Of a stretch of DNA of 64,000 nucleotides, positions 18,221 to 42,665 are shown piece by piece. The stretch spans positions 27,170-91,169 of the forward strand of contig JAQBTX010000001.1 in assembly GCA_027624795.1 (NCBI GenBank), read 5' to 3'. Below the pieces are notes generated by a model. That model searched no databases. It had not been told where the DNA came from and worked only from the letters and a program-made list of their open reading frames with translations. Numbering within the stretch: position 1 is the stretch's first letter; every line of letters begins with the position of its first letter. A program made the translations under genes and the position numbers. Source of the stretch: a bacterium. Lineage in GTDB: Bacteria > Patescibacteriota > Microgenomatia > UBA1406 > GWC2-37-13.

Positions 18221-21181
18221 ATGATTTCTGATCCCATCAAACTCAACACCAGTCAGCGCCAAGCCGTAGAATATACTTCTGGTCCTCTCCTTATTGTTGC
18301 TGGTGCTGGAACGGGCAAAACTAACACATTAGTTGAGAAGATAAAGTATCTGATAAGTGAGAAACTCGCAAAACCTGAAGAAATCCTCTGTCTTACGTTT
18401 ACTGAAAAAGCTGCCTATGAAATGGAAGAGCGGGTCGATAAGGCAATGCCCTATGGTTACTTTCAAATGTGGATCTCGACGTTTCACAAGTTTGCAGACG
18501 AAGTCCTCCGCAATGATATCTATCATATGGGTTTAAACCCCGCATACAATCTCATGACGCAAGCCCAGTCAATCCTTTTTTTGAAAAAGAACCTCTTTCA
18601 GCTTGATCTCAAGTACTTTCGACCGGTGAGTAATCCCAATAAGTTTATCGAAGGATTACTGCAACATTTTTCCCGGCTCCATGATGAGGATATTAGCCCG
18701 GAAGAATACGGGAAATGGGTGAGATCCCCGACTCCTCGCTCCGCTCGTCTCGAGGATGACGATAGTAGAAACCACGATGAACTCGATCAATACGCCGAAC
18801 TTGCCAGCGCCTACTCAACATATCAAAAGCTCAAGTTGGAACATGATGTCATGGACTTTGATGATCTTATTTATTATGCAATTAAGCTCTTTCGAGAGCG
18901 TCCCAATATATTAAAACAGTATCAAAAGAAGTTTAAATATGTCTTGGTTGATGAGTTTCAAGACACCAATATTGCACAGTATGAACTTATCAAACTACTC
19001 TGCCCACCCGATTCAAACCAACATCTGACGGTGGTTGGGGACGATTCTCAAGCAATTTACAAGTTCCGCGGAGCGTCAGTCTCAAACATCATGACATTCA
19101 TGGAGGATTATAAAACAGCCCACCAAGTCAGTCTTTTAGATAACTACCGCTCAAATCAAACTATCCTTAATCACGCGTATCGACTCATACAAAATAACAA
19201 TCCTGACACACTTGAAAGCAAGCTTGGAATCTCAAAGGAACTCGTCGGTCATGCAAAAAATATCAAAGATGCCGTGCAGTTTGAGTTATTTTCACATGGC
19301 AACACTGAGGCAGACTGGATTGCAGATACAATTAAAACGTTACATGAAACAAGATACACGCTCTCCGACTTTGCCATCCTCGTCCGCGCAAATAGCCACA
19401 GCGATCCCATCATAAATGCCCTAAAACGAAGTGGTATTCCCTATCAATTCTTGGGTCCGGGGACTCTTTTCAAGCAACCTGAAGTCAAAGACTTAATTGC
19501 GTATCTCCAAGTGCTTTCGGATCTTGACGACACTGTCTCTTTATACCGCGTTCTGAGTATGGAGCTCTTTGAGCTTGAAGAGCAGGATGTGGTGTTACTC
19601 ATGTCTTTTGCTAAAAAAACCTCTCTGTCACTTTTTCAGGCACTCGAAGTGTACCTGTCATTTTTCCACGATGAGTGGAGGAGTACTGAACATGAGATCT
19701 ATAAAGAGCATATTCCACTCATACCAGAAAAGACCCGCGAAAAACTCATTGTGATAATCCAGATGATCAAAAATCACTTGAAAAGACTTCGCAAAGATAG
19801 CGCTGGAGAAATCTTGTATGAATTCTTGGCAGACACGGGGTATTTATCAAAGCTGAGCAATCCTGAAAACGAATATGAGCAACAAAAAACGCTCAATGTC
19901 ACTAAATTTTTCCAAAAGCTCAAAAATATGGAGAATGAGATCGATGATACCTCGGTCTTTTCAGCTGTAGAATATATCAAAATGAGTATAGATATGGGAG
20001 AGTCCCCTCTTGCATCTGATTCTGACGCAATGCCCACGAATGCGGTGAATATCCTCACAGTTCACGGCGCAAAGGGTCTTGAGTTCCCTGTTGTTTTTAT
20101 GCCAGATCTCATAAAAGGTCGATTCCCAACAAACAATCGTCGAGAACAAATTCCCATCCCTGATGCACTTATCAAAGAGAAAATGCCTTCAGGCGATTAT
20201 CACATTCAAGAAGAAAGAAGGCTTTTTTATGTCGGACTTACCCGTGCAAAAGAAAGATTATTTCTTTCTGCCTCAGAGATATATGGCGAAGGCGTCCGGA
20301 AGAATCGCGTCTCCCCGTTTGTTGGAGAAACAGTCGGAGAAGAGGGCGTAACGAATAAATCAGCAATTCGTGCGGAACAAAAAGAGCAACTTTCAATCTT
20401 TGATTTCAAAAAAAAGCCAGAGAGTGAACCCATTCCGATTCCTACAGATATTAAAAATCTGTCCCACTCTCAGATAAATACTTACGAGATGTGTCCTCTG
20501 AAGTACAAATATCAGTATGTTTTAAAAATTCCAACCGGGGGAAACGCAGCTTCTTCATTTGGAAGTAGCATTCACCATGCGCTCCATAAGTTTTATAAAG
20601 GGTTTAGTACCGATCGAAGCTTTGGACTCACACATCTCATGAATCTGCTTGAAACCTCATGGATCCCGGTGGGATACAGATCTCGAGACGAGCAGTCACA
20701 GATGAAAGAAGAAGCGCGCCACATGCTCGAAAACTATTTTCATACCTTTCATAGTCCTGAAATTGAGATCATGGATCTTGAAAAACTGTTCAAAATACGA
20801 GTGGGAAGTGATATTTTTTTGACGGGAAAAATTGATCGTGTGGATACAAAAGCAGATGGAACTATAGAAATAATTGATTATAAAACCGGTAAAATGCCTG
20901 ATGAAAAGAAACTCAAAAAAGATATGCAACTTGCGATTTACGCCATGGCAGCAAGTGATTTTGGACTCTATCATAAACCAATTGAGAAGATCGATCTGTC
21001 TTTTTACTACCTCCAGCATAGAGAAAAAATCACCTTACAACGAACAGAGGAAGATATTCATACGGTCAAAATGCATGTGCGTGAAATCGCTGAGAAAATT
21101 CGTGAAGGAGTATTCCCTGCACAAAAAAGTAAGGCGTGTGACTTTTGTGATTTCAAGATGATCTGCGAGGCGTGGCAATGA
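18221..21181 (+). CDS. UvrD/PcrA-family SF1 helicase fused to a C-terminal PD-(D/E)XK (RecB/Cas4/AddB-like) nuclease with a Cys cluster
   Basis: Walker A AGAGTGKTN and VDEFQDTN. C-terminus has CPLKYKY..., GKIDRVD...IIDYKTGK, QLAIY and CDFCDFKMIC (C...CxxCx5C). ATG 18221 preferred over GTG 18194. Confidence 0.88.
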   Translation: MISDPIKLNTSQRQAVEYTSGPLLIVAGAGTGKTNTLVEKIKYLISEKLAKPEEILCLTFTEKAAYEMEERVDKAMPYGYFQMWISTFHKFADEVLRNDIYHMGLNPAYNLMTQAQSILFLKKNLFQLDLKYFRPVSNPNKFIEGLLQHFSRLHDEDISPEEYGKWVRSPTPRSARLEDDDSRNHDELDQYAELASAYSTYQKLKLEHDVMDFDDLIYYAIKLFRERPNILKQYQKKFKYVLVDEFQDTNIAQYELIKLLCPPDSNQHLTVVGDDSQAIYKFRGASVSNIMTFMEDYKTAHQVSLLDNYRSNQTILNHAYRLIQNNNPDTLESKLGISKELVGHAKNIKDAVQFELFSHGNTEADWIADTIKTLHETRYTLSDFAILVRANSHSDPIINALKRSGIPYQFLGPGTLFKQPEVKDLIAYLQVLSDLDDTVSLYRVLSMELFELEEQDVVLLMSFAKKTSLSLFQALEVYLSFFHDEWRSTEHEIYKEHIPLIPEKTREKLIVIIQMIKNHLKRLRKDSAGEILYEFLADTGYLSKLSNPENEYEQQKTLNVTKFFQKLKNMENEIDDTSVFSAVEYIKMSIDMGESPLASDSDAMPTNAVNILTVHGAKGLEFPVVFMPDLIKGRFPTNNRREQIPIPDALIKEKMPSGDYHIQEERRLFYVGLTRAKERLFLSASEIYGEGVRKNRVSPFVGETVGEEGVTNKSAIRAEQKEQLSIFDFKKKPESEPIPIPTDIKNLSHSQINTYEMCPLKYKYQYVLKIPTGGNAASSFGSSIHHALHKFYKGFSTDRSFGLTHLMNLLETSWIPVGYRSRDEQSQMKEEARHMLENYFHTFHSPEIEIMDLEKLFKIRVGSDIFLTGKIDRVDTKADGTIEIIDYKTGKMPDEKKLKKDMQLAIYAMAASDFGLYHKPIEKIDLSFYYLQHREKITLQRTEEDIHTVKMHVREIAEKIREGVFPAQKSKACDFCDFKMICEAWQ
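18723..18760 (-). repeat. Hairpin-element copy E (long-loop subtype, inverted orientation), in frame in the helicase gene
   Basis: The reverse complement reads GTCATCCTCGAGACGAGCGGAGCGAGGAGTCGGGGATC. Stem TCCTCG/CGAGGA. Locally GC-rich. Translated as SPTPRSARLEDDD. Confidence 0.6.
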
Positions 21182-21833
21182 CTTTATACCTCAGCACCAC
21201 CTCATCCTCAAGTTTTTCGACCGATTCAAGTTTGAACTGGGGCACTTCGTCAGGAGGAAATAGAATACCCTCGACCATGGTCAGAGTTTTGTCAGGCAGT
21301 GATCCAAATATTTTGGGAGCAATCGTGAGATGGATCTCATCGAGAACTCTCGCTTCAAGCAGTTGAGCAATAAGGTTTGGCCCTCCATCAATAAAAACGT
21401 TTTTGTAGCCTTTGGAGTTCAAATACTCTATTAACTTTTGTGGCGTAACTCGTGATTCTCCTTCGTTTGGTGTCAAAATGGTGGGCTTAAATCCATGATC
21501 ATTTTTTAATGCATTATGAAGTTCTTCATCAGGACGAGAAGTGATAACAATGTATTCTGGTAAAGGTGGCTTGCCAAGGTCTTTTCTAAATCCTTGGTAC
21601 ATATCTTCATGAATCCTTTTTATAATGTATTTGGCAAAACGAACTGCTGTATTTCTGGCATCAACTAGAGCATCAGCATGCGCGCGAAGATAGGTAAAAT
21701 ACTCTTTATCTTTTTCCGTCCCAATCGGCCAGTAGCCTTTCTCTTTTACGATAATTTTTCCGTCAATAGATGAGATAAAGCTGGTGAAAAGGTATGGTCG
21801 ATCTGGATGAGTCGGAAAAACGAAAGGTTGCAT
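21153..21833 (-). CDS. RibD C-terminal domain / dihydrofolate-reductase-like reductase
   Basis: PYLFTSFISSIDGKI...VFIDGGPNLIAQLLEARVLDEIHLTIAPKIFG is typical of the RibD_C/DHFR-like fold. ATG 21833. Confidence 0.75.
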   Translation of the reverse strand: MQPFVFPTHPDRPYLFTSFISSIDGKIIVKEKGYWPIGTEKDKEYFTYLRAHADALVDARNTAVRFAKYIIKRIHEDMYQGFRKDLGKPPLPEYIVITSRPDEELHNALKNDHGFKPTILTPNEGESRVTPQKLIEYLNSKGYKNVFIDGGPNLIAQLLEARVLDEIHLTIAPKIFGSLPDKTLTMVEGILFPPDEVPQFKLESVEKLEDEVVLRYKVIATPRRSS

Positions 21834-21864
21834 ACAGTATTGTACCTCAATTCTCAATTTATTT

Positions 21865-22521
21865 TTACTTCTGAGTGTCAGACCGAAGCCACTTTACGCC
21901 CCAATATACTAGAGGTGTTTCGATCACTGACATCGAGCATTTAAGAAGCCAATACGGCACAATCAAGCTCACTAGAAATCCAACGTTAGCGTCAAACCCT
22001 CTGTCAAGTGAGTAAAATGCTAGAAACATAAACACAGTTGTATCTATAAGCTGCGCTACAAAGTTTGAGGCATTATTTCGAAGCCAAAGCCTACTCTTTC
22101 CAAGACGTGCTCGTATGCGTGCAAAAATGAAAATGTCAAGAAAATCAGCAAGCGCAAAGGCAGTCAGACTTGCAATAGTGATGCGAAGCGATTTTCCAAA
22201 AATCGAGTCATATGCTTCTTCTGACCCAGCAAAACGTGCAGATGGGGGAAGTGATATTGCAAGAAGGATAAACCCCATAAGAAGAACTATCATGAAAAGT
22301 CCCGTGCGGACAATACTCCTTGCTCGCTCTGCTCCGTAGACTTCAATGACCATATCGTTAATCGTAAAAAGCAGTGGAATAACAAAGATCGCAACACTGG
22401 CATTGAGTGTAAATGTTCCAATCGTTAAAAGAGGAAAGGTCTTAGCCCCCATAAGCTCTGCTACTATTATGCCAAATATATAGATCCCTACCAAGAGGTC
22501 CATTTTTTGCATCTTGAACAT
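21865..22521 (-). CDS. Queuosine-precursor transporter family membrane protein (YhhQ/DUF165)
   Basis: Polytopic. TINDMVIEVYGAERAR and NFVAQLIDTTVFMFLAFY align with the E. coli YhhQ motifs (DLTVRIFG..., GNVSDTLAFFFIAF). Confidence 0.75.
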   Translation of the reverse strand: MFKMQKMDLLVGIYIFGIIVAELMGAKTFPLLTIGTFTLNASVAIFVIPLLFTINDMVIEVYGAERARSIVRTGLFMIVLLMGFILLAISLPPSARFAGSEEAYDSIFGKSLRITIASLTAFALADFLDIFIFARIRARLGKSRLWLRNNASNFVAQLIDTTVFMFLAFYSLDRGFDANVGFLVSLIVPYWLLKCSMSVIETPLVYWGVKWLRSDTQK

Positions 22522-25746: not shown

Positions 25747-25748
25747 TT

Positions 25749-26813: not shown

Positions 26814-28034
26814 ATGTCTAAAAAATCAATCGTCATAGGGGTTTCATCGGGAATAGCTGCTTATAAAATTCTTGATCTAATAACTATCTTTAAAAAGCAG
26901 GGCCACGATGTGCATGTGATGATGACTCAGAAAGCTTCGCACATTCTGTCTCCGGGAAAAGTTGAAAAGCTTACCGGACATCCGGTATATATGCATCTAT
27001 TTGATAATGATTTTTCATATGAACAGATATTAAAGCAGAAAAAAGTAGATCATATTGAACTTGCTAAACATGCCGATATATTTGTCATCGCGCCAGCTAC
27101 TGCCAATATTATTGCCAAACTTGCCAACGGTTTAGCAGATGATTTCTTAACTACTTCAATTTTAGCTACTCATGCACCAGTACTCATCTGCCCTTCTATG
27201 AATGATGTCATGTGGAATCACCCGGCAACTTCGAAAAATTTAACCATTCTGAAAAGCTATGGCTATGAACTACTAGATCCTGCAACTGGATCACTAGCCT
27301 GTGGGACCGATGGTATTGGGAGATTGCCTGAGATGGATGTTATTGCAAAAGCTACTCATGAAGTATTAGAGAGAACTCAGTTGCTTGCTGGTAAAAAAAT
27401 TATCGTAACTTCTGGTGGCACTAGTGAACCCATAGATGATGCGCGCGTAATAACGAATAGATCTTCTGGCAAGATGGGTGTTGCACTTGCTGAAGCTGCG
27501 TTTCGATATGGAGCAGAGGTGACACTCCTCCGTTCACATAATTCTGTACTTTCGCACCTCCCCATAACACAAAAAGCCTACGCTTCGGTTACTGAACTAT
27601 CATCTCTTATGAAAAAAGAAGTCAAAAACAATGACATAGTCATTCATGCTGCAGCGGTTTCAGATTTTACCGTAACCAAAGCAGGGGAGAAGTTAGAGAG
27701 TTCCACTCCCCATTCTATAACCCTCTCCCCTACCAAAAAAATAATAAATGAGATTAAAAAAATAAATCCAAAAATAATACTTATTGGTTTTAAAGCGGTC
27801 ACTAATGTCATCCCGAGCGCAGTCGAGGGATCCCTTCAAAAACTCTTTGATGATGCTCATGCCGATTATGTGATCGTAAACGATATTAGTCGGAGCGATA
27901 TTGGTTTTGAATCAGATGAAAATGAAGTGTATGTTGTAGACAGTAATAAAATAATAAAACACATACTTAAAGCGCCAAAACGAGAAATTGCGAACGAGAT
28001 ATTAAAAACGATCTTTATAAATCGCTCATTATAG
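26814..28034 (+). CDS. coaBC: Bifunctional phosphopantothenoylcysteine decarboxylase / phosphopantothenate-cysteine ligase
   Basis: N-terminal flavoprotein (GVSSGIAAYK, PATANIIAKLANGLADD, CPSMN). C-terminal CoaB (ITNRSSGKMG, AAAVSDF). Confidence 0.92.
   Translation: MSKKSIVIGVSSGIAAYKILDLITIFKKQGHDVHVMMTQKASHILSPGKVEKLTGHPVYMHLFDNDFSYEQILKQKKVDHIELAKHADIFVIAPATANIIAKLANGLADDFLTTSILATHAPVLICPSMNDVMWNHPATSKNLTILKSYGYELLDPATGSLACGTDGIGRLPEMDVIAKATHEVLERTQLLAGKKIIVTSGGTSEPIDDARVITNRSSGKMGVALAEAAFRYGAEVTLLRSHNSVLSHLPITQKAYASVTELSSLMKKEVKNNDIVIHAAAVSDFTVTKAGEKLESSTPHSITLSPTKKIINEIKKINPKIILIGFKAVTNVIPSAVEGSLQKLFDDAHADYVIVNDISRSDIGFESDENEVYVVDSNKIIKHILKAPKREIANEILKTIFINRSL
27806..27834 (+). repeat. 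Hairpin-element copy A (imperfect stem), in frame in coaBC
   Basis: TGTCATCCCGAGCGCAGTCGAGGGATCCC shares the GTCATCC...GGGATC termini and the GAGCG..AGTC..GGGA core with copies E and G. Translated as VIPSAVEGS. Confidence 0.5.
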
Positions 28035-28428
28035 AAAGGTAAAACTCCTTATCTTTTGGATGAGTCAATAGATTAGCTACCTCTTCTTTTTTAACCCAGC
28101 GCGCTTCTGGATTTTCTGTATCTTGAGGACTGAGCTCTTTTTGATTGGTAGTAAATAAATGCATGTGAATGGTCTTTATCTCACTGGTGTCTTCTCCTCC
28201 CTGTATACCGATTCGATGACGCGCATACGTACCAAGTTTTTTTATGTAAGTAAGCTCAGAAATACCCGATTCTTCATATATTTCTCTTTTTGCAGCAGTC
28301 ACCTCATCTTCACCAATGTCTATGTGGCCTTTGGGAAGAGACCAAGAATTACCATTTTGGTTTACCACAAGAACCATATTATCTGTATTAATCACCACTC
28401 CCCCAGCGCTCGTTGTATGTTTAGTCAT
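28015..28428 (-). CDS. Nudix hydrolase
   Basis: Nudix box GHIDIGEDEVTAAKREIYEESGI. Confidence 0.88.
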   Translation of the reverse strand: MTKHTTSAGGVVINTDNMVLVVNQNGNSWSLPKGHIDIGEDEVTAAKREIYEESGISELTYIKKLGTYARHRIGIQGGEDTSEIKTIHMHLFTTNQKELSPQDTENPEARWVKKEEVANLLTHPKDKEFYLSIMSDL

Positions 28429-28438
28429 AGTATCTTCA

Positions 28439-28465
28439 TGTCATCCCGGACTCGATCCGGGATCC
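28439..28465 (+). repeat. Hairpin-element copy B (intergenic, perfect 8-bp stem)
   Basis: TGTCATCCCGGActcgaTCCGGGATCC: stem ATCCCGGA/TCCGGGAT with a 5-nt loop. Lies between the HAD stop (28468) and the Nudix start (28428). Confidence 0.8.
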
Positions 28466-28467
28466 AG

Positions 28468-28941
28468 TTATTTATTTATAATTTTATTTAATTCCTCTAT
28501 TGCAGTTTCGTTATCTTGATAATGTACCGTAACTAATCCCGCCGCTTGTGCCGCCTTGATATTTATTTCTGTGTCATCCACAAACACAATCTCATCAGGT
28601 GATTTTTGAATAAGCGATGCAATCTTTGTATAAGCTTCGGGAGTTGACTTGCTCACTCCAAGTCGAAGTGCACTAAAGATGTTCTTAAATAGTGGATTGA
28701 GCTTTTCCATTACCGGTGGATACTCTTGTATATATTCGGAGGTAAAAATATATATTTCGATTTTTGATGAGAGATTTACATAATAATCTAGAAGTTCAGT
28801 ATTTAACGTAAAATAGTTCCAAAAATCATAGTCTCCTGTTTTGAGAAGTTCTTGATGAAGTTCATTTAACTTACCTGAATTCTTATCATCTTTTTTAAAA
28901 AGTAATACTTTAGAAAAATCAGAAATAAGTGCGTTGATCAT
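28468..28941 (-). CDS. HAD-superfamily hydrolase (short form)
   Basis: C-terminal FVDDTEINIKAAQAAGL (HAD motif IV context). The N-terminal DxD motif is not obvious (ISDFSKVL). Confidence 0.6.
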   Translation of the reverse strand: MINALISDFSKVLLFKKDDKNSGKLNELHQELLKTGDYDFWNYFTLNTELLDYYVNLSSKIEIYIFTSEYIQEYPPVMEKLNPLFKNIFSALRLGVSKSTPEAYTKIASLIQKSPDEIVFVDDTEINIKAAQAAGLVTVHYQDNETAIEELNKIINK

Positions 28942-28951
28942 ATTATTTTGA

Positions 28952-28978
28952 TGTCATCCTGAACTTGTTTCAGGATCT
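28952..28978 (+). repeat. Hairpin-element copy C (intergenic, perfect 8-bp stem)
   Basis: TGTCATCCTGAActtgtTTCAGGATCT: stem ATCCTGAA/TTCAGGAT with a 5-nt loop. Lies 10 nt upstream of the HAD start codon. Confidence 0.8.
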
Positions 28979-28988
28979 TAATTTATAA

Positions 28989-29333
28989 CTACTCTTCCTC
29001 ACCCCTAATTACATACCACTCCCCCTCTTTGATGATTTTTGCTTTAAATTTTGTTTGAGTTTCTGTGTACCACTCACCTTCTTTGGTGCCTACCGCAATT
29101 GCGCCAACAAGGCCTATCACTGTATCGTCTATAAGGGGAATATCACTACTATCTTTATACGTTATAAGTTCGCGGGAAACTAATGACTCCTTCCCGGCAT
29201 CTAATCGCTCTTTGGTGGTATCTTCAATTTGAAGGTCAAACCGAGTAAAAATATCATCATTTTCTGCTCCAGATATAACCAACAAATAAAGAAGTTCATT
29301 TTCAGTGAAGGTGAGAGAATGTGATTGTTTCAT
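28989..29333 (-). CDS. Hypothetical protein with duplicated KEGEWY motif
   Basis: 114-aa ORF in an operon-like array. GTKEGEWYTETQ and IIKEGEWYVIRG repeat near the C-terminus. No family recognised. Confidence 0.5.
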   Translation of the reverse strand: MKQSHSLTFTENELLYLLVISGAENDDIFTRFDLQIEDTTKERLDAGKESLVSRELITYKDSSDIPLIDDTVIGLVGAIAVGTKEGEWYTETQTKFKAKIIKEGEWYVIRGEEE

Positions 29334-30018: not shown

Positions 30019-31344
30019 ATGAAATACTTTGTCAAAACTTTCGGGTGTCAGCAAAACGAGGCAGATAGCGAGCGCGTGGCGCAAGCTTTTTCCGCCAGAG
30101 GACTTACCAAAGCGCGCGGTTATCAAGATGCCAACTATGTAATCATAAATACCTGTATGGTTCGCGAATCTGCAGAAAATAGAGTGTATGGATTGGTCAA
30201 TAATTTAAAAGAAATTAAAGCTCAAAAAACAAAAGATGGAGAGCTTTATAAAATCATCGTCACCGGTTGTATGGTGGGAATTGCATTTCGTGATAAATCC
30301 GGAAAGTATCTTACCAAAATTCGAAAAGCCATGCCCGCAGTTGATGAATTTATGCCCATAGAAGAAGTAGGATTTGATATGGAGCCAGTCCGGCAAAATG
30401 ATATACAAGGATGGGTACCCATTTCAAATGGCTGTAATAACTTTTGCACATTTTGTATTGTGCCCTTTACCCGTGGAAGAGAAATTAGTAGACCTTATGA
30501 AGATATCATCGATGAATGCTTGCATTTGAAGGCAAAAGGATACAAAAAAGTTACACTCCTTGGACAGAATGTAAATTCATATGGCGCGGATCTCATAATG
30601 GGAAAAGAAAATGTTCATGTGATGCGAGATATTAAAGATACGTATTTTAAAAAAAGCACCACCCCTCCCGACTCAACGTCGGGAAACCCCACCTTAAAAA
30701 GGAGGGGAGTTAGTGATATAGCTCTCCTCCTTGATAAGGAGGAGTACCCAAAGGGGGAGGTGGTAAATCACCTTTCCACTATCAGATCTAAATTCACCTA
30801 CAACGGCCGTAACGTGGAACCAGTATATGTAAAACATTTGGGCAAACAACGCATTCCTACCTTGTTCCCCTATTTGCTGGAAGATATTGCACGTATGGAT
30901 TTTGAACTGGTAGATTTTGTATCATCAAATCCTTGGGACTTTTCTGATGAACTCATAGATATGATTGCCAAATATCCCAATGTGACACGCACCATTCATC
31001 TTGCCGTGCAATCCGGAGATAATGAAGTGCTCAAGCGAATGAATAGGTGGTATACACGAGAGGAGTATTTAGATATTGTTAATAAACTTAAAGCTCAGGT
31101 TCCCAATGTTAAATTAACAACCGACATCATCGTGGGTTTCTGTGGAGAAACAGATGAAGAATTTCAAAATACGGTAAAACTTGCCAAAGAAGTTGGGTTT
31201 GATAAAGCGTATATATCTCGTTATTCAGAGCGGCCGATGACCGCTGCCACTAAAGTAATGAAGGATGATATTCCGATGCCAGTGAAGAAAAAACGATGGA
31301 AAGAATTAGATAAGATAATCAATACGTTTGCGTATACTTTATGA
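30019..31344 (+). CDS. miaB: MiaB-like radical-SAM methylthiotransferase with a large internal insertion and no TRAM domain
   Basis: N-terminal TFGCQQNEADSE...NTCMVRE. Radical-SAM CNNFCTFC. The ORF ends about 20 aa after ...YSERPMTAA, so the C-terminal TRAM domain is absent. Confidence 0.82.
   Translation: MKYFVKTFGCQQNEADSERVAQAFSARGLTKARGYQDANYVIINTCMVRESAENRVYGLVNNLKEIKAQKTKDGELYKIIVTGCMVGIAFRDKSGKYLTKIRKAMPAVDEFMPIEEVGFDMEPVRQNDIQGWVPISNGCNNFCTFCIVPFTRGREISRPYEDIIDECLHLKAKGYKKVTLLGQNVNSYGADLIMGKENVHVMRDIKDTYFKKSTTPPDSTSGNPTLKRRGVSDIALLLDKEEYPKGEVVNHLSTIRSKFTYNGRNVEPVYVKHLGKQRIPTLFPYLLEDIARMDFELVDFVSSNPWDFSDELIDMIAKYPNVTRTIHLAVQSGDNEVLKRMNRWYTREEYLDIVNKLKAQVPNVKLTTDIIVGFCGETDEEFQNTVKLAKEVGFDKAYISRYSERPMTAATKVMKDDIPMPVKKKRWKELDKIINTFAYTL
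30658..30764 (+). repeat. GC-rich composite palindromic element with terminal inverted repeats, inside miaB
   Basis: ACCACCCCTCCC (30658-69) pairs at 11/12 positions with GGGGGAGGTGGT (30753-64). Internal hairpins: TCCCGAC-tcaac-GTCGGGA (30666-84) and CTCCTCCTT-gat-AAGGAGGAG (30724-44). Confidence 0.7.
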
Positions 31345-33117: not shown

Positions 33118-33960
33118 ATGAATGTTGCAATCACGGGACCAAACGGACTAATTGGATCGCGCGTAATAAAACTCTTGAGCGATGAAATAACATTTATCCC
33201 CCTTTCGCATGAAGATCTTGATATTGCACATAAAGAAGATGTAGAAAATAAACTAAATGATATTGAATTTGATATTCTTCTCCACCTTGCTGCGTATACC
33301 AATGTTGATAATGCGGAACTTGAACAACATAAAGCTCGTGCGATAAATGTCGATGGAACCAGATATTTGTATGATGCAGTAAAGCAGAAAGGAAAAAAGA
33401 TGATCTATATTTCTACCGACTATGTATTTGATGGAGTGAATCCTCCGTTTGATGAAGAAAGCGTACCTAACCCAATTGGATATTATGGAAAAACAAAGTA
33501 CGAGGGAGAACAAGTATTGGGAAACAATGCAATGATCGTACGTGTGAGTTATCCGTATCATACTGATGTCATTTTGAGTGGAGCGAAGAGTCAGGGAAAA
33601 CCAGATATTGTTACCCGCCTTTCACAACTTCTCAAAGAGGGAAAAACCCTCCCTATGGTAACGGATGCAAGTATTACTCCAACACATATCGATGATATTG
33701 CCGAAGGATTGAATTATTTGATCCATAATTTCAAACCAGAAATCTATCATTTAGTAGGATCGAAATCATATTCACCCTTTGATGTGGGAACGATGATAGC
33801 TCGATACATAGGTGCGCCGACAGATCTCATAAAGCCAACTACGTTTGAAGAATACAGTAAAGGCAAGGCGCCACGACCACAATATTCAGAAACAATAAGT
33901 AAGAAAAATCGCTTTCATAAGATGCAAGCGCTTGGGGAAGTGATTGAATATAAGATGTAA
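33118..33960 (+). CDS. rfbD: dTDP-4-dehydrorhamnose reductase family (RmlD-like)
   Basis: ITGPNGLIGS...HLAAYTNVD...ISTDYVFDG...YGKTKYEGE. Confidence 0.82.
   Translation: MNVAITGPNGLIGSRVIKLLSDEITFIPLSHEDLDIAHKEDVENKLNDIEFDILLHLAAYTNVDNAELEQHKARAINVDGTRYLYDAVKQKGKKMIYISTDYVFDGVNPPFDEESVPNPIGYYGKTKYEGEQVLGNNAMIVRVSYPYHTDVILSGAKSQGKPDIVTRLSQLLKEGKTLPMVTDASITPTHIDDIAEGLNYLIHNFKPEIYHLVGSKSYSPFDVGTMIARYIGAPTDLIKPTTFEEYSKGKAPRPQYSETISKKNRFHKMQALGEVIEYKM
33568..33603 (+). repeat. Degenerate hairpin-element copy G, in frame in rfbD
   Basis: GTCATTTTGAGTGGAGCGAAGAGTCAGGGAAAACC. Its GGAGCGAAGAGTCAGGGA core matches the reverse complement of copy E (GGAGCGAGGAGTCGGGGA) at 16/18 positions. The stem has decayed. 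Confidence 0.4.
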
Positions 33961-38431: not shown

Positions 38432-39544
38432 ATGAAGAAAATTAACTTATCAATAAAAAATACTGTAGTTCCTATCGACTTTAACACTCATTTTAAAAAT
38501 CTCGCACATATTGCTGATTCTTTAAATCATGGCGCATCAAAACATTATAAGAAAATGGGGCTCACCTATGTCGATGTTCCAGAAATTGTTGGGATTACTG
38601 GTGCGTGTGAAAACGTAGACACCCTATTTGTCATACAAAACAGAAATGGCATTCCCCTTTTTTTTGCACAAACTGGGCAACTTTCACTTGAACAGATACT
38701 ACAGACACTACCTGGTGCATATACCGTCATTCATTCTGGTCGCGATGAGGAATATGAGGACGCGCGACATTTACGACAATTTAGACTCACTGAAGAGGAA
38801 TTCGATTGCACTCTCGTAAATATGAATCGAGACAATTATGATGAGGAGAAGATGTTTCAAGCACTGCTCAACCATATACAATGTGCAGTACAGGCAATGA
38901 TCTATGAAGTGATCCAAGACCATCAATCCTTATTGGAAAATACGTATCATAGAGATATAGAAGTCCTACACTACACCTCCTCACATGATTTTCAACAAAT
39001 ATCGTATGGGGATGCAGTTGAACTCCTAAATGATAATGGATTTCCAAAAGTACAATTCGGTGATGATCTAAAATCTGAACATGAAGCATGTGTGATAGAA
39101 GTATTAAACAAAGGAGAAACGGAATTACCAGTGTTTATTACCAAGTATCCAAAAGATATTAAATTTTTTAATATGAAGGTTTCAGAAAAAGATCCACGAG
39201 TGGTTCTTTCTGCTGATCTTATTCTTCCCTATGCCGGAGAAGCCACCGGTTCTGCAGTACGTGAACATGATTTCAAAAAACTTGATGAACGACTCACAAA
39301 TTCTACTATGTTTAAACTCCATACTCAAAGAGGGGGAACCTATGATGATTTTAAATGGTATTTGGATATTATTAAAAGCAAAAAAACCAATCCTCATGCA
39401 GGATATGGCATAGGTAATGAACGGGTACTCCAATATATCTTTGGAGAAAAAGATATTAGAAACGTATCGTTATTTTCACTGTTAAACAATCAAACCGGAG
39501 ATTGGGATAAGTCGAAACAGGGAAATAACAAGTTTGTAAAATAA
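38432..39544 (+). CDS. Class IIb aminoacyl-tRNA-synthetase catalytic-core paralog (AsnRS/AspRS-like) lacking the anticodon-binding domain
   Basis: Motif 2 GRDEEYEDARHLRQFRLTEEEF. YPKDIKFFNM. GEATGSAVRE. Motif 3 PHAGYGIGNERVLQYIFGEKDIRNV. Only about 25 aa precede the motif-1 region, so there is no OB fold. Confidence 0.8.
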   Translation: MKKINLSIKNTVVPIDFNTHFKNLAHIADSLNHGASKHYKKMGLTYVDVPEIVGITGACENVDTLFVIQNRNGIPLFFAQTGQLSLEQILQTLPGAYTVIHSGRDEEYEDARHLRQFRLTEEEFDCTLVNMNRDNYDEEKMFQALLNHIQCAVQAMIYEVIQDHQSLLENTYHRDIEVLHYTSSHDFQQISYGDAVELLNDNGFPKVQFGDDLKSEHEACVIEVLNKGETELPVFITKYPKDIKFFNMKVSEKDPRVVLSADLILPYAGEATGSAVREHDFKKLDERLTNSTMFKLHTQRGGTYDDFKWYLDIIKSKKTNPHAGYGIGNERVLQYIFGEKDIRNVSLFSLLNNQTGDWDKSKQGNNKFVK

Positions 39545-39552
39545 ATATACAG

Positions 39553-39581
39553 TTGCATAAATGTATAATTATGATTATAAT
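39553..39581 (+). promoter_or_regulatory. Consensus sigma70-like promoter of a micro-transcript
   Basis: TTGCAT (39553-58), exactly 17 nt, then TATAAT (39576-81). Confidence 0.6.
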
Positions 39582-39587
39582 ACCAAC

Positions 39588-39714
39588 AATGATCACATTA
39601 CTTACACTCACCAGCATCGTTTCACGACGAACCAACGGGGGAGTAAGTTTTGTGATATAACAATCACAGAAACAAGACAATCCCCTGCCCATAAAACGGC
39701 GGGGGATTTTTTTT
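39588..39714 (+). ncRNA. Roughly 125-nt promoter-to-terminator unit: sRNA, leaderless 23-codon micro-ORF (39589-39660) or attenuator leader
   Basis: ATG lies 7 nt after the -10 box. The ORF is MITLLTLTSIVSRRTNGGVSFVI. Hairpin at 39647-39673, followed by a strong intrinsic terminator. Confidence 0.45.
39680..39714 (+). terminator. Rho-independent terminator
   Basis: ATCCCCTGCC-cataaaac-GGCGGGGGAT forms a 10-bp stem with one G-U pair, followed by a run of 7 T. Confidence 0.8.
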
Positions 39715-39735
39715 GGTTAAAAATTACTAGCACTT

Positions 39736-40254
39736 ATGATAGATATACTAATATCAAGTACGCATAAATCAAAAACGCCAGCACTGGATGCAAACGATAT
39801 TTGGGTGGTTTTAATGGATGATCCGACATTTGCATCAACGTACGAAAGAGAAACTCAAGCTCATAAACCATTTGTAGATGCTCTTCCTGAGCTTTTCAAG
39901 GAAGAGATGAATAAATATGTTGGCGCTGCTCTCCTAATGCAGCTCAGATCCAAATATCTATCCTATTGTCTTCAGAATGATTATGTTGGAACAGTACTTG
40001 GAGGAAGATTTAAGGGTGCCTTTCAAAAAGAATTGGAAAAAGCAACAATACTCTATAGTAGTTCTGCCAGATTTGTTGATGAATCAATAAAAAAACAAAA
40101 TAAAACCGATATCGAATGGTTGATGCACTTTTGTTTAAGTCCAGCATCTCTCACGATGCATTCAGAAGGAATACTTACAGTAAGACAGTTACTTTTGACC
40201 CAACCAATGGCAATCATAAGTACGCCACCTCAAACAGTTTTATCCACGTATTAA
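39736..40254 (+). CDS. Hypothetical protein (172 aa), no recognisable family
   Basis: Uninterrupted ORF ending 5 nt before the GNAT start. No motifs recognised by eye and the start is uncertain. Confidence 0.5.
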   Translation: MIDILISSTHKSKTPALDANDIWVVLMDDPTFASTYERETQAHKPFVDALPELFKEEMNKYVGAALLMQLRSKYLSYCLQNDYVGTVLGGRFKGAFQKELEKATILYSSSARFVDESIKKQNKTDIEWLMHFCLSPASLTMHSEGILTVRQLLLTQPMAIISTPPQTVLSTY

Positions 40255-40259
40255 GTACT

Positions 40260-40865
40260 ATGGAAAATTTATCAACATATATGGTCGAGACTGAACTAAA
40301 TTCACTTATTCTTCTTAAAAACGATGCCTTTACTGCTCGTGTAGCAACAGAGGGCGATACTTTGTGGACAAATACAATAAGTAATTGGATTAGTAATGCG
40401 GGACCCCAGAAAATGATACCTAAAGATATCAGTACTATTGCTAGATACTTTAGAGACCAAGACTCCGTACTTGTTTTTAGTAATGAAGGCCTACTCGTAG
40501 GACATATTGCGTTTACGTATAGATATGGTGTGGGAAATGAACGTGTAGAAATAGGTTCTTTGTGTATCAATCCGGAATTTGGAGGTAAAGGGATAGCGAC
40601 TATGGCAGTTCAAGGCATTATACGCTACGCTGCTTTAACATTTGATGTAGATACAAATATATTTGCTATGTGCAACCAAGAAAGCCTACATATATTTGTT
40701 AATAAAGTAGGAGGGATAATTGTCCCTTGTGAAAAAACAGATAATGAAGTGTACAATCATTGTGAGCTCTGCCCACGTGCAGCAGGTGCGTCGACATCCG
40801 CACCTCCTTGTCGCCATACCCATGTAGACCTTACACGAGTAGTTGCATCGCTTCGAGAGGTATAA
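40260..40865 (+). CDS. GNAT-family N-acetyltransferase with C-terminal Cys/His-rich tail
   Basis: Acetyl-CoA motif A IGSLCINPEFGGKGIATMAVQ. Tail CEKTDNEVYNHCELCPRAAGASTSAPPCRHTH. ATG 40260 chosen; the track start at 40116 overlaps the upstream ORF. Confidence 0.78.
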   Translation: MENLSTYMVETELNSLILLKNDAFTARVATEGDTLWTNTISNWISNAGPQKMIPKDISTIARYFRDQDSVLVFSNEGLLVGHIAFTYRYGVGNERVEIGSLCINPEFGGKGIATMAVQGIIRYAALTFDVDTNIFAMCNQESLHIFVNKVGGIIVPCEKTDNEVYNHCELCPRAAGASTSAPPCRHTHVDLTRVVASLREV

Positions 40866-40892
40866 TGCTTTATTATTTGTTATCATATCACC

Positions 40893-42665
40893 ATGCTGAA
40901 AGACAAAATTCACATCATCATAGCTCAAGCTTTAGAGGAACTCAACCTTCCTTCAGACAAGCTTGCCATTTCTCCGCCCAACAATGAAAATTTTGGAGAT
41001 TATGCCACGAACATAGCCCTTCAACTGGCAAAGAGTGAAAAGAAAAACCCCATGGTACTGGCACAACATATAGTTGATGCAATCAAGACTGGTGATGTGA
41101 TAGAAAAAGCAGAGGTTATGAATCCAGGATTTATAAATATTCATATTGGTAAAAATAAACTGATCGAAAATCTCTCTCAAATTGCTATCAATAAGATTGA
41201 AATTCCTCAAGTAAATAGCGGTAAGAAAATTATTGTAGAATATTCAAATCCCAATATTGCAAAACCATTTACAGTTGGACATCTACGCTCAACTATTATC
41301 GGTGATACTATCGCAAACCTTTTTGAGTCAACTGGGGCGACTATTTACCGCGATAATCATCTTGGCGACTGGGGCACACAGTTTGGGAAATTAATTTATG
41401 CTATAAAAGAGTGGGGAAATGAAGAAGAGATAAAAGGTGCTGAAAACCCCGTTAAGATACTGGTTGAATTATATGTCAAATTTCATACTGAAGCAGAAAA
41501 AAATCCTGATTTAGAAATAGAAGGAAGAAAATGGTTTAAAAAACTGGAGGATGGAGATGAAGAAGTTCGACGGTTATGGAAACAATCGATTGAATGGTCT
41601 TGGACTGAATTCGACAGATTATACAAACAACTTGGTATAAAAACAGAGGATTTTGAAAATAATGGCCGCGGATATGGAGAATCGTATTTTGAAGATAAAA
41701 TGGATCCGATCATAAAAGAGTTAAAAGATAAAAAAATATTACAAGAAAGCAAAGGGGCATGGCTTGTATTTTTCCCCGATGAAAAATTTCCTCCCATGAT
41801 GCTCGTGAAACAAGATGGCGCTACATTGTATGCGACGAGAGATCTCGCGACAGATAAATTCAGATTAAATAAATATGGAAAAGACGTGATCATTATTAAT
41901 GAAGTTGGAGCTGAACAATCATTATATTTTCAACAACTTTATGAAGTAGAAAAAATGGCCGGATGGGTAACGGATGGTCAGCGTATTCATATCAAGCATG
42001 GCATGTTTAGATTTAAAGACTCCAAAATGTCTACAAGGAAAGGGAATACCATATGGCTTGAAGATGTATTGGAAGAAGCCATAAAGAGAGCGCATGAAAT
42101 TGCAATGGAAGTTGGAATAAAAGAACAAGGTGATATATCAATGATTAAGAGTAGTCATATTATTGGGGGAGAATCTAAACGTGAAGAAGTTACATATAAA
42201 ATCGCAATCGGAGCTCTTAAATGGAATGACTTAAAGCGGAGCGCTCATATGGATATTGTTTTTGATTGGGATGAGCTTCTTAATATGCAAGGAAACTCCG
42301 GACCTTATGTTCAATATACCTATGTCCGTTGTAAGTCTGTGTTGGGTAAAGCAGATAATCCTGTCATTCCCGACCCCGATCGGGAATCCAGAGAAATAAA
42401 TGAAGAGGAGTTAAGCTTGATAAGATCACTTTCTAAATATCCCGAAACTATACTTGAATCTACACAGAATTTTGCTCCAAATTACTTGTGTTTATATTTA
42501 TATGACTTGTCACAAAAATATAATCTGTTTTATCAAAAACACAAGATTCTAAAAGCGGAAGACGATGAGATTATACAAATGAGACTTACCATAACGAAAG
42601 CTGTAGCAAATGTGCTCAGTCACGGTCTTACCCTACTGGGAATAGAGACGGTTGAAAAGATGTAA
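40893..42665 (+). CDS. argS: Arginyl-tRNA synthetase
   Basis: 590 aa. NPNIAKPFTVGHLRS (HIGH-like). Class I core. C-terminal DALR anticodon-binding domain (LSLIRSLSKYPE...APNYLCLYLYDL). Confidence 0.93.
   Translation: MLKDKIHIIIAQALEELNLPSDKLAISPPNNENFGDYATNIALQLAKSEKKNPMVLAQHIVDAIKTGDVIEKAEVMNPGFINIHIGKNKLIENLSQIAINKIEIPQVNSGKKIIVEYSNPNIAKPFTVGHLRSTIIGDTIANLFESTGATIYRDNHLGDWGTQFGKLIYAIKEWGNEEEIKGAENPVKILVELYVKFHTEAEKNPDLEIEGRKWFKKLEDGDEEVRRLWKQSIEWSWTEFDRLYKQLGIKTEDFENNGRGYGESYFEDKMDPIIKELKDKKILQESKGAWLVFFPDEKFPPMMLVKQDGATLYATRDLATDKFRLNKYGKDVIIINEVGAEQSLYFQQLYEVEKMAGWVTDGQRIHIKHGMFRFKDSKMSTRKGNTIWLEDVLEEAIKRAHEIAMEVGIKEQGDISMIKSSHIIGGESKREEVTYKIAIGALKWNDLKRSAHMDIVFDWDELLNMQGNSGPYVQYTYVRCKSVLGKADNPVIPDPDRESREINEEELSLIRSLSKYPETILESTQNFAPNYLCLYLYDLSQKYNLFYQKHKILKAEDDEIIQMRLTITKAVANVLSHGLTLLGIETVEKM
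42362..42389 (+). repeat. Hairpin-element copy D (perfect 8-bp stem), in frame in argS
   Basis: TGTCATTCCCGAccccgaTCGGGAATCC: stem ATTCCCGA/TCGGGAAT. Translated as VIPDPDRES in the variable linker before the DALR domain. Confidence 0.75.

What the first reader, a model, noticed from the sequence alone, without database searches (positions are those of the whole stretch)
18723..42389. Dispersed family of small GC-rich hairpin elements (GTCATYCC...GGRATC), several translated in frame inside housekeeping genes
At least seven related elements are visible.

Short perfect hairpins:
- B, 28439-65: ATCCCGGA/TCCGGGAT.
- C, 28952-78: ATCCTGAA/TTCAGGAT.
- D, 42362-89: ATTCCCGA/TCGGGAAT.
- F, 30666-84: TCCCGAC/GTCGGGA.

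Long-loop relatives sharing a GAGCG..AGTC..GGGA core:
- A, 27806-34.
- E, 18723-60, in inverted orientation.
- G, 33568-603, degenerate.

B and C are intergenic. A, D, E, F and G lie inside coaBC, argS, the UvrD-nuclease gene, miaB and rfbD respectively. They are read through in frame (VIPSAVEGS, VIPDPDRES, SPTPRSARLEDDD, PPDSTSGNP, VILSGAKSQGKP).

The stems differ between copies but remain complementary. This argues for selection or propagation at the DNA/RNA structure level. The known precedent for selfish palindromic repeats inserting in frame into protein genes is the Rickettsia palindromic elements (RPE). I am not aware of an equivalent characterised family in CPR-type genomes.
Basis: partly seen in the sequence, partly recalled or inferred. 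Interest (0 to 1): 0.65.

Follow-up and report, generated by a model that had tools for sequence, protein, structure and literature searches.

The report
CGTC-tagged REP palindromes in a CPR genome
The small GC-rich hairpins are real and belong to an already described superfamily of bacterial repeated palindromes (CGTC-tagged REPs, which includes two Rickettsia RPE types); here they sit between genes and, read in frame, inside essential genes of a candidate-phyla-radiation bacterium.

Summary
A, B, C and D are highly significant: 5 pattern hits against 0.13 expected, and covariance-model E-values of 1e-6 to 1e-9 from models built only on sequences from other genomes. E and G are degenerate copies, supported mainly by comparing orthologues. 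F is a true hairpin but lacks the family's tag.

The anatomy of B, C and D is an unpaired (C/T)GTC tag, an 8-bp stem starting AT, a 5-6 nt loop and a CCA-like tail. This is the definition of the CGTC-tagged REP superfamily (Di Nocera et al. 2013). That superfamily already includes Rickettsia RPE-4/RPE-6 and Neisseria dRS3. It is known to occur in frame in UvrD-type helicases and tRNA synthetases, and has no known transposase.

In relatives, the same linker sites of ArgRS, CoaBC, MiaB and RmlD are empty or carry singles, inverted singles or tag-outward dimers. At the ArgRS site three lineages keep a perfect stem through two double compensatory changes, although synonymous sites are saturated. 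Complementarity is strictly Watson-Crick, with no G·T excess, which points to a DNA-level constraint.

Verdict: a new member of a known kind. I found no earlier report of it in CPR bacteria. Interest is moderate.

The parts
27806..27836 (+). Element A. Sequence TGTC ATCCC GAGCGCAGTCGA GGGAT CCCTT, of the long-loop 'GAGCG' subfamily. In frame in CoaBC (residues 332-340, VIPSAVEGS), same sense as the gene.
   Evidence: Pattern hit. CM R2 E = 1e-9 and R3 E = 1.8e-8. The same 31 nt are identical in the CoaBC of L221, which is only 64% identical in amino acids and 38% at four-fold sites. L222 carries a copy with a compensatory change. Many relatives have an empty site or dimers there. In the AlphaFold model the peptide covers a loop plus the start of helix 334-348, with mean pLDDT 69 for the 10-residue block 331-340.
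28439..28467 (+). Element B. Sequence TGTC ATCCCGGA ctcga TCCGGGAT CCAG. Intergenic: its tail ends 1 nt from the stop codon of the upstream minus-strand gene, and its tag lies 11 nt before the ATG of the Nudix gene. Antisense to both genes.
   Evidence: CM R1 E = 3e-8. DNA fold -8.4 kcal/mol, z = -2.8. ORF map and Pfam.
28952..28980 (+). Element C. Sequence TGTC ATCCTGAA cttgt TTCAGGAT CTTA. Intergenic: its tag lies 11 nt before the ATG of the HAD-type phosphatase gene, and it is 12 nt from the stop of ORF 28989-29333. Antisense to both genes.
   Evidence: CM R1 E = 1e-6. Fold z = -4.6. An identical 25-nt core occurs in CPR locus L151 and in a 71% GC IMG/VR contig, L117.
42362..42391 (+). Element D. 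Sequence TGTC ATTCCCGA ccccga TCGGGAAT CCAG. In frame in ArgRS (residues 491-499, VIPDPDRES), same sense as the gene.
   Evidence: CM R1 E = 1.2e-6. Fold z = -3.1. Orthologous copies in L002 and L220 carry two double compensatory stem changes and the same loop. The peptide lies in a coil linker (487-503); mean pLDDT of block 491-500 is 56.
18720..18761 (-). Element E. Degenerate long member: CGTCATCCTCGAGACGAGCGGAGCGAGGAGTCGGGGATC. Antisense inside the UvrD-type helicase-nuclease gene, read as SPTPRSARLEDDD.
   Evidence: Pattern hit. CM R3 E = 0.019. No stable fold. The nearest relative, P0241 (73% identical), lacks it and has a linker 6 residues shorter.
33567..33603 (+). Element G. Decayed member: TGTCATTTTGAGTGGAGCGAAGAGTCAGGGAAAACCAG. 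In frame in RmlD (VILSGAKSQGKP).
   Evidence: CM R2 E = 0.023. About a 10-residue insertion relative to PDB 3sc6. L127 and six other relatives have an empty site. L004 has an intact copy at the same place: GTCATTCAGAGCGGAGCGAA...GGGAATCCAGG.
30666..30684 (.). Hairpin F. Sequence TCCCGAC tcaac GTCGGGA, inside a palindrome-rich insert of about 45 residues in MiaB. Not shown to be a member of the family.
   Evidence: Stable hairpin, z = -4.4, but no tag or tail. CM R1 matches the hairpin only, E = 0.11. Nested inverted repeats. Relatives carry bona fide tagged elements at this same MiaB site.
52294..52319 (-). Weak additional candidate: GTC ATCCC gtagattg GGGAT TCA. Inside a class-II aminoacyl-tRNA-synthetase-like gene.
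   Evidence: Hairpin scan. CM R1 E = 2.3. Fold z = -1.3. Pfam tRNA-synt_2. Not significant on its own.

Best explanation
The elements are REP-type palindromic repeats of the CGTC-tagged superfamily.

Anatomy. An unpaired (C/T)GTC tag is followed by a stem that begins A-T/T-A, a short loop and a C(C/T)N tail. The window holds two forms:
- The canonical short form (B, C, D): 8-bp stem, 5-6 nt loop.
- A 'GAGCG' long form (A; E and G decayed): only five Watson-Crick pairs remain, and the inner part is purine-rich.

Likely history (inferred). The elements are non-autonomous. They entered the genome mostly as tag-outward (HH) dimers of about 85 bp. They survive only where they do little harm: in short spacers just after stop codons and in permissive linkers of proteins, where any of three stop-free reading frames is translated (VIP..., SS/SF..., CHP/SHS...; in reverse ...DD/...ND).

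What happens after insertion (shown). Copies are inherited vertically for long periods. They decay by partial deletion, from dimer to either single.

What keeps surviving copies palindromic. Strict Watson-Crick complementarity of the arms is maintained either by selection on a DNA-level hairpin or by arm-templated correction. The constraint is shown; the choice between these two causes is inferred.

What is shown: family membership, in-frame translation, presence/absence at orthologous sites, and compensatory evolution.

What is inferred: the mobilising enzyme, probably acting in trans on a single-stranded DNA hairpin and cutting at the tag, as RAYTs do on GTAG REPs; and any host function.
For: Enrichment and significance.

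Architecture matches the published family definition and its peptide table (VIPAKAGI, CHSRESGNP, DSRFRGND...AGMT). The exact CGTC-1 type that encodes VIPAKAGI occurs in CPR locus L196 (TGTC ATTCCCGC gaag GCGGGAAT CTAG).

Tag-hairpin linkage without circularity: among all perfect hairpins in 1.2 Mb of CPR DNA, the combination 'GTC flank + AT-starting stem' is the commonest (16 of 976 strand views, about 1 expected).

Orthologous sites:
- ArgRS: singles, an inverted single, HH dimers, a truncated dimer and empty sites.
- RmlD: empty against filled.
- MiaB, CoaBC and the UvrD-type gene.

Hairpin constraint:
- Three ArgRS lineages have stems ATTCCCGA / ATCCCGGA / ATTCCGGA, each perfectly paired, while four-fold sites are only 28-32% identical.
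- A is identical over 31 nt between two CoaBC genes that are 64% identical in amino acids.
- In 160 distinct GAGCG-class copies retrieved with Y/R left free, the two variable pairs are Watson-Crick in 155 and 156 cases (Fisher p about 1e-39 and 1e-35). G·T is no more frequent than C·A, and wrong-partner controls show no association.

Dimers: at least 14 plus-then-minus pairs among CM hits in CPR loci.

No transposase among the window ORFs examined: Pfam on 28 ORFs, and synteny annotation for most of the rest of the 16-64 kb half.
Against: - No insertion event was caught. The same few sites carry elements in many relatives, which could mean ancient single insertions rather than ongoing mobility.
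- No target duplication or common flanking motif was seen.
- No mobilising enzyme was identified.
- A, E and G do not meet the family's stem and loop criteria, and A does not fold significantly.
- E and G have CM E-values no better than a known false positive.
- Only 64 kb of this genome was examined, so the copy number per genome is extrapolated.
- Figure 2 of the 2013 paper, which gives the consensus sequences, could not be read. Assigning B and C to CGTC-2 rests on the text description of stem and loop lengths.
Confidence: 0.8

Rival explanations
1. The hairpins are host-beneficial structural elements that are not, or no longer, mobile. Candidates are mRNA 3'-end protectors or processing sites between cistrons, or binding sites for a conserved host factor. 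They would be kept by purifying selection, and the coding copies would be tolerated or co-opted.
For: B and C sit immediately after stop codons, and both lie exactly 11 nt upstream of the next start codon in co-directional gene pairs. This is the position the 2013 survey reports for uni-directional REPs. Structure is conserved long term at orthologous sites despite saturated synonymous change.
Against: Orientation relative to transcription is mixed: A, D and G are sense; B, C and E are antisense. G·U-type pairs are not tolerated more than C·A, which argues against an RNA-only constraint. Many close relatives have empty sites. Copies decay freely, as E, G and the truncated dimer in L127 show. 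Family size varies widely among loci. No RNA data exist for this organism.
Confidence: 0.2
2. The elements are recognition or target sites for a site-specific recombinase or an integrating element, rather than transposing units themselves. Neisseria dRS3, a member of CGTC-1, is reported to work this way.
For: The same superfamily includes dRS3. The tag and tail are conserved while the stems are variable. Element-like sequences are abundant on contigs classed as viral.
Against: No integrase, IS110-type gene or prophage lies next to any copy in the window. The copies sit inside intact essential genes, so nothing has integrated there. Many IMG/VR contigs are probably cellular fragments.
Confidence: 0.07
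3. The coding copies are ordinary coding sequence. In variable protein linkers they happen to resemble each other through composition or convergent peptide selection.
For: A and D are not length insertions relative to distant PDB orthologues. The same linkers accept many unrelated low-complexity inserts in other CPR lineages.
Against: The same 25-31 nt DNA recurs in unrelated genes and genomes. Examples: the A type in CoaBC of the window and L221 and in ArgRS of L001; C in L151 and L117. Intergenic copies share the same architecture. Three reading frames and both orientations are used at one site. Amino acids change in order to keep the stem.
Confidence: 0.02

Closest known systems
CGTC-tagged REP superfamily, families CGTC-1 to CGTC-4 (Di Nocera, De Gregorio & Rocco 2013, PMC3733652)
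   Same: Shared features:
- Unpaired CGTC/TGTC tag.
- Stem of 8-9 bp starting AT.
- Loop of 4-5 nt; the loop CTTGA, back-translated here from the table's CGTC-3/-4 peptides VIAGLDPAIH and VIPWLDHGI, compares with CTTGT, CTCGA and CTTGA here.
- CCA-like tail.
- Tag-outward (HH) dimers predominate.
- Copies close to the 3' ends of ORFs.
- In-frame intragenic copies in UvrD/REP helicases and tRNA synthetases.
- The same peptide classes.
- No linked transposase.
   Different: - The host phylum (CPR/Patescibacteria, Microgenomates) is not among the five phyla surveyed.
- D and its orthologues have a 6-nt loop.
- The GAGCG long-loop forms (A, E, G; 25-36 nt classes) fall outside the published stem and loop ranges, and no peptide of that type (VIPSEVEGSL, VILSEAKDL) appears in the paper's table.
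Rickettsia palindromic elements (RPE), specifically RPE-4 and RPE-6
   Same: In-frame insertion into housekeeping genes. The 2013 paper equates RPE-6 with CGTC-1 and RPE-4 with CGTC-4. The peptide classes VIPAKAGI, CHSRESGNP and DSRFRGND parallel VIPDPDRES, SHSREGGNP and ...LEDDD here.
   Different: The classical RPE-1 type is much longer (my own recollection: of the order of 100-150 bp) and unrelated in sequence. The host is an alphaproteobacterium. The window's copies are singles, with different stems.
GTAG-tagged REPs / REPINs mobilised by RAYT (TnpA-REP) transposases
   Same: Short tagged palindromes, doublets in inverted orientation, long vertical persistence, and occasional in-frame copies.
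   Different: The tag is GTAG, not (C/T)GTC. A cognate single-copy RAYT gene is normally present and flanked by REPs. None was found here, and none is known for CGTC REPs.
Neisseria dRS3 / NIME repeats
   Same: The paper classes dRS3 as CGTC-1. By my recollection its core is ATTCCC-N8-GGGAAT, which resembles the D stem ATTCCCGA...TCGGGAAT.
   Different: dRS3 copies are clustered in intergenic mosaic arrays and, by my recollection, serve as integration sites for filamentous prophages. No such context exists here.
PARCELs (palindromic amphipathic repeat coding elements, PMC2996958) and in-frame MITEs (e.g. Coxiella, PMC5896051)
   Same: Palindromic repeats that are translated within host proteins.
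   Different: They are much longer and form other sequence families. PARCELs are intragenic tandem repeat-coding modules; MITEs derive from insertion sequences that lost their transposase and carry terminal inverted repeats.

Membership tests
CGTC-tagged REP superfamily | Unpaired terminal tag CGTC (TGTC or CCTC allowed) at one end of the palindrome | tested here: met
   A, B, C, D and G have TGTC; E has CGTC. Orthologues L002 and L001 have CGTC. GTC is the commonest 5' flank of AT-starting perfect hairpins in 1.2 Mb of CPR DNA. F has no tag.
CGTC-tagged REP superfamily | Stem of 8-9 bp whose first two pairs are A-T and T-A | tested here: met
   B, C and D have perfect 8-bp stems starting AT. 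Not met by A (5 Watson-Crick pairs), E or G. These three are assigned only as a related GAGCG subfamily or as decayed copies.
CGTC-tagged REP superfamily | Loop of 4-5 nt drawn from a few recurrent types | tested here: inconclusive
   B (ctcga) and C (cttgt) have 5-nt loops. CPR relatives have gaag/gaaa (4 nt) and cttgt/cttga (5 nt). D and its orthologues have 6 nt (ccccga). A, E and G have 12 nt or more between the Watson-Crick arms. The paper notes loops of other lengths in some species.
CGTC-tagged REP superfamily | Short unpaired 3' tail, mostly CCA | tested here: met
   B and D have CCA; A has CCC; C has CTT. Across CPR copies the tail is C(C/T)N.
CGTC-tagged REP superfamily | Predominantly tag-outward (HH) dimers | tested here: met
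   None in the window itself. HH dimers occur at the orthologous ArgRS, MiaB and CoaBC sites of relatives. At least 14 plus-then-minus pairs are among the CM hits in CPR loci.
CGTC-tagged REP superfamily | Multi-copy and dispersed, with in-frame intragenic copies | tested here: met
   5 hits against 0.13 expected in 64 kb. 58 CM hits in 1.1 Mb of related loci. In-frame copies in CoaBC, ArgRS, the UvrD-type gene and RmlD.
CGTC-tagged REP superfamily | No dedicated flanking transposase | tested here: met
   No transposase or recombinase domain in the 28 window ORFs scanned against Pfam, nor in the syntenic genes annotated in relatives. This covers 64 kb only.
GTAG REP / REPIN-RAYT system | GTAG tag and a cognate RAYT gene | tested here: not met
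   The tag is (C/T)GTC in every copy. No Y1/HUH transposase in the window.
Rickettsia RPE (as a sequence family) | Sequence identity to a named RPE consensus | not tested
   No Rickettsia sequence was compared. The link rests on the 2013 paper's equation of RPE-4/-6 with CGTC-4/-1, and on L196 carrying the DNA that encodes the RPE-6-type peptide VIPAKAGI.
MITE | Terminal inverted repeats plus target-site duplication, derived from an IS | tested here: not met
   Dimers have inverted ends (TGTCATYC...GRATGACA), but no flanking duplication is visible at the ArgRS, RmlD or MiaB junctions. No parent IS was found.
Intrinsic transcription terminator | GC-rich hairpin followed by a U-run at the end of a transcription unit | tested here: not met
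   B and C are flagged only on the plus strand, opposite to the flanking genes. The T-rich tail is the complement of the neighbouring stop-codon region.
Rfam RNA families | Match at gathering score | tested here: not met
   No hit in the window or in six copy-rich loci.

The most novel reading that the evidence does not exclude
Two linked possibilities remain open.

1. The GAGCG long form has five Watson-Crick pairs, apparent tandem G·A pairs and, in its commonest 25-nt class, a GCGNAGC mini-hairpin. It may be an undescribed subfamily. It is found in contigs of 32-70% GC as well as in CPR genomes, and its structure would be a single-stranded DNA hairpin.

2. Both forms may be kept under purifying selection inside essential genes, with amino acids changing to preserve the stem. 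That would mean a conserved trans-acting factor still reads them, rather than their being mere junk.
Probability: 0.25. Interest if true: 0.6.

Novelty: new member of a known kind. Interest (0 to 1): 0.4.

Why it matters
CGTC REPs are the REP superfamily with no known mobilising enzyme or function.

Finding them in tiny, streamlined CPR genomes extends their range to a very different lineage. There they occupy inter-cistronic spacers and linkers of ArgRS, CoaBC, MiaB, RmlD and a UvrD-type helicase.

The orthologous-site series offers a natural experiment:
- Dimer, single, inverted single and empty states can be ordered on a tree.
- The stem is seen to be conserved by compensatory change at the expense of the protein sequence.
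- The strict Watson-Crick rule points to DNA rather than RNA as the selected structure.

There is also a practical consequence. These repeats break metagenome assemblies and generate recurrent peptide motifs (VIPSEVEGSL, ...QNDN). Such motifs can mislead annotation and homology searches.

Tried and rejected
- Literature search by literal element sequences returned only primers and unrelated hits.
- Rfam gave nothing at gathering or permissive thresholds.
- A relaxed head/tail regular expression was no better than shuffles (35 hits against 22) and was dropped in favour of hairpin-aware scans and covariance models.
- The single genome-contig scan, used with ArgRS, returned only three useful relatives. 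The taxonomic range across named genomes was therefore not measured.
They show presence outside CPR, not abundance.
- Laying Logan contigs of the source metagenome cannot reveal presence/absence polymorphism. It only showed a depth spike and contig breaks at the repeats.
- The terminator reading of B and C was rejected because of strand and context.
- The CM hit at 15815-15846 was rejected as conserved ribosomal protein L3 coding sequence.
- F was tested as a member and not accepted.
Full report
**Observation.** All seven stretches are present at the stated coordinates.
Dinucleotide shuffles give 0.13 matches on average and never five.
- A hairpin-aware scan shows that B, C and D share one geometry: GTC, then a perfect 8-bp stem beginning AT, then a 5-6 nt loop.
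- Folded as single-stranded DNA, B, C, D and F are clearly more stable than shuffles (z = -2.8 to -4.6). A has only a 5-bp stem. E and G are no better than shuffles.
- The window is about 38% GC. By its ArgRS it comes from a Microgenomates-type CPR bacterium close to Roizmanbacteria.

**Gene context.**
- A lies in CoaBC, D in ArgRS, F in MiaB, G in RmlD and E in a UvrD-type helicase-nuclease. All are read through in frame.
- B and C fill two short spacers between three co-directional minus-strand genes: Nudix, a HAD-type phosphatase and an unassigned ORF.
- B ends 1 nt from the upstream stop codon. In both B and C the tag lies exactly 11 nt before the next ATG.
- Relative to transcription, A, D and G are sense; B, C and E are antisense.

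**Identity.** The anatomy is the published definition of the CGTC-tagged REP superfamily (PMC3733652).
- The paper equates Rickettsia RPE-6 and RPE-4 with CGTC-1 and CGTC-4, and Neisseria dRS3 with CGTC-1.
- It tabulates in-frame copies in UvrD/REP helicases, excinuclease subunits, dnaE2 and tRNA synthetases. The listed peptides (VIPAKAGI, SFPRKRES, CHSRESGNP, DSRFRGND, ...AGMT) are of the same classes seen here and in relatives (VIPDPDRES, VIPSAVEGS, SHSREGGNP, ...LEDDD, ...QNDN).
- A CPR locus (L196) carries the very DNA that encodes VIPAKAGI.
The claim that no characterised equivalent exists does not hold. I found no report of the family in CPR genomes in the held literature.

**Independent significance.** I built covariance models only from copies in other genomes. 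R1 used 17 short hairpins; R2 used 26 copies of the 25/26-nt GAGCG class; R3 used 35 copies of the 34-36-nt class.
- In the window: B 3e-8, C 1e-6 and D 1.2e-6 with R1; A 1e-9 with R2; G 0.023 with R2; E 0.019 with R3.
- A hit at E = 0.029 in a conserved ribosomal protein L3 motif is a false positive. E and G therefore need other support.
- F matches only as a bare hairpin (E = 0.11) and has no tag.
- Among all perfect hairpins (stem of 7 bp or more, loop 4-6 nt) in 1.2 Mb of CPR DNA, the combination 'GTC flank plus AT-starting stem' is the commonest of all flank/stem combinations: 16 of 976 strand views, where about one is expected.

**Orthologous sites.** Five genes could be compared with relatives.

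ArgRS linker after the YTYVRCKSVL motif:

| Sequence | ArgRS identity to window | State of the site |
|---|---|---|
| window | - | forward single |
| L002, L220 | 64-65% | forward singles with the same loop |
| L001 | 62% | A-type copy |
| L003, L004, L006 | 63%, 77%, 72% | HH dimers of about 85 bp (TGTCATCC...GGATCCAG, about a 10-nt spacer, TGGATTC...GAATGACA) |
| L127 | 83% | left unit plus a truncated right unit |
| L005 | 81% | only the right, inverted unit; identical to the reverse complement of L127's left unit |
| L128, L140 | 66-67% | nothing |

- RmlD: L127 and six other relatives have an empty site (YPY-GNPSSKN-PDIV). L004 has an intact long element there. The window has the decayed G.
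- MiaB: L004 has a single plus a GATGACA remnant, L142 a dimer, L006 an inverted single, and L127 only a QNDK remnant. The window instead has a different palindrome-rich insert that contains F.
- CoaBC: relatives show empty sites, singles (VIPSAVEGSL, VIPSEAEESL) and dimers in other frames (SHSRVDGN...VQDDS; GHPERVKRPKDPE...WILRVAQND).
- UvrD-type gene: the nearest relative lacks E.
- These patterns fit insertion of dimers into permissive linkers followed by differential decay. This is what the 2013 paper suggests for singletons. I could not separate repeated insertion into the same permissive loop from a single ancient insertion.

**Constraint on the palindrome.**
- At the ArgRS site the three forward singles read ATTCCCGA/TCGGGAAT, ATCCCGGA/TCCGGGAT and ATTCCGGA/TCCGGAAT. 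All share the loop CCCCGA. That is two stem positions with changes on both sides, while the encoded residues change (R/P, E/G).
- Between these genes four-fold degenerate sites are only 28-32% identical, which is saturation.
- A is identical over 31 nt to the copy in the CoaBC of L221. The two genes are 64% identical in protein and 38% at four-fold sites. L222 has the compensated ATTCC...GGAAT version.
- A non-circular test used 160 distinct GAGCG-class copies retrieved with a pattern that leaves the two Y and two R positions free. The pairs are Watson-Crick in 155 and 156 cases (Fisher p about 1e-39 and 1e-35). Only 2 and 1 are G·T, against 3 and 3 C·A. Wrong-partner controls show no association.
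- Because G·T is not favoured over C·A and both orientations are transcribed, the constraint looks like DNA-level complementarity: a hairpin, a cruciform or arm-templated copying. It does not look like a one-strand RNA structure. This is an inference. Relatedness of copies inflates the counts, although all four pair combinations are common.

**The long forms.**
- A, E and G share GAGCG...AG(T)CGA between five-pair arms.
- The same class is abundant in IMG/VR contigs of 32-70% GC.
- Its commonest member, GTCATTCTGAGCGAAGCGAAGAATC, can be drawn as five Watson-Crick pairs, a tandem G·A/A·G, and a GCGNAGC unit. That unit is described as an extraordinarily stable DNA mini-hairpin (PMC13037366).
- A itself is the 26-nt variant with one extra T and does not contain an exact GCGNAGC.
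- No peptide of this class appears in the 2013 table, and literal searches found no description. Figures are not searchable, so I treat the class as a possibly undescribed subfamily, not as established novelty.

**Other context.**
- None of the 28 window ORFs scanned against Pfam is a transposase or recombinase. Most other genes in the 16-64 kb half are housekeeping by synteny with annotated relatives. ORFs in 148-16,300, apparently a ribosomal-protein operon, were not scanned.
- AlphaFold models place D in a coil linker between helices (pLDDT 56). They place A across a loop and the first turns of a helix (pLDDT 69). 'Surface loop' therefore holds for D and only partly for A.
- In the source metagenome the assembler's word depth over D is 172, against 5-15 nearby, and contigs break at the elements. 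This is as expected for a repeat shared by many genomes.

**Mechanism and rivals.**
- Most likely these are non-autonomous REP-type elements. They would be mobilised in trans through a single-stranded DNA hairpin with the tag as the processing site, by analogy with RAYT action on GTAG REPs. Neither the enzyme nor any event was observed.
- A host function is not excluded and may coexist, for example stabilisation or processing of the transcript at B and C. Mixed orientation, frequent empty sites and free decay argue against it as the main explanation.
- A role as recombinase target sites, as for dRS3, has no support in the local context.
- Ordinary coding sequence is excluded.

**Verdict.** The finding is real, and the biology was read correctly. 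The elements belong to a family described in 2013, so this is a new member of a known kind. The added value is the CPR host, the orthologous-site series with compensatory evolution inside essential genes, and the widespread GAGCG subfamily.

Noticed in passing
window 30655-30760 (MiaB); L219 1385-1430: The window's MiaB carries a palindrome-rich in-frame insert of about 45 residues at the site where relatives carry tagged REPs. The nested inverted repeats are TCCCGAC/GTCGGGA, CCCCTCC/GGAGGGG and CTCCTCCTT/AAGGAGGAG. A similar hairpin, GTCCCGACattctGTCGGGAC flanked by CCTCC...GGGAGG, lies in the ArgRS linker of another CPR contig. This may be a second family of in-frame GC-rich palindromes.
   Followed up: partly
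window 42117-42167 (ArgRS residues 409-425): ArgRS has a second, AT-rich insert with a patchy distribution. The window shares one version with a 55%-identical Levybacteria-type protein. Other relatives have an unrelated version of about 35 residues (SKHESKFEG...KKNIMG), or none. The AlphaFold pLDDT is below 50 there. It is not REP-like.
   Followed up: partly
L148, L156, L160, L166, L173 (ArgRS linker): In more distant CPR relatives the same ArgRS linker holds short in-frame tandem DNA repeats (for example aatcaaaa x3, actcaca x4, gttcaaa x3). The loop seems to accept many kinds of low-complexity insert.
   Followed up: no
window 15815-15846 (-): GTCATCCCGCACAACGCACTGCTGGATC scores E = 0.03 with the short-hairpin model. 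It encodes the conserved ribosomal protein L3 motif HGHPAQRTAGSIG, so it is a chance resemblance. It is useful as a calibration for the weak hits.
   Followed up: yes
L155 14550-17790: One CPR contig carries a cluster of at least 14 model hits in 3.3 kb, mostly as tag-outward dimers. At least one dimer lies inside a listed 258-codon ORF (reading frame not checked).
   Followed up: partly
L221 4557-4586: In a relative, a second A-type copy starts on the base after the CoaBC stop codon. The same gene also carries the in-frame copy.
   Followed up: no
window 42363; L004 11561-11584: Assembly contigs start or end exactly in these elements. In the source metagenome the word depth over D is more than 10-fold that of the flanks. 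The repeats fragment metagenome assemblies.
   Followed up: partly
window 28428-28440 and 28941-28953: In both intergenic copies the tag is separated from the downstream start codon by exactly 11 nt (ATGAAGATACT and ATCAAAATAAT). No obvious Shine-Dalgarno sequence lies in between. The nearest purine-rich run is the element's own GGAT.
   Followed up: no
window 28015-28034: The coaBC ORF (plus strand) and the Nudix ORF (minus strand) converge and overlap by 20 nt.
   Followed up: no
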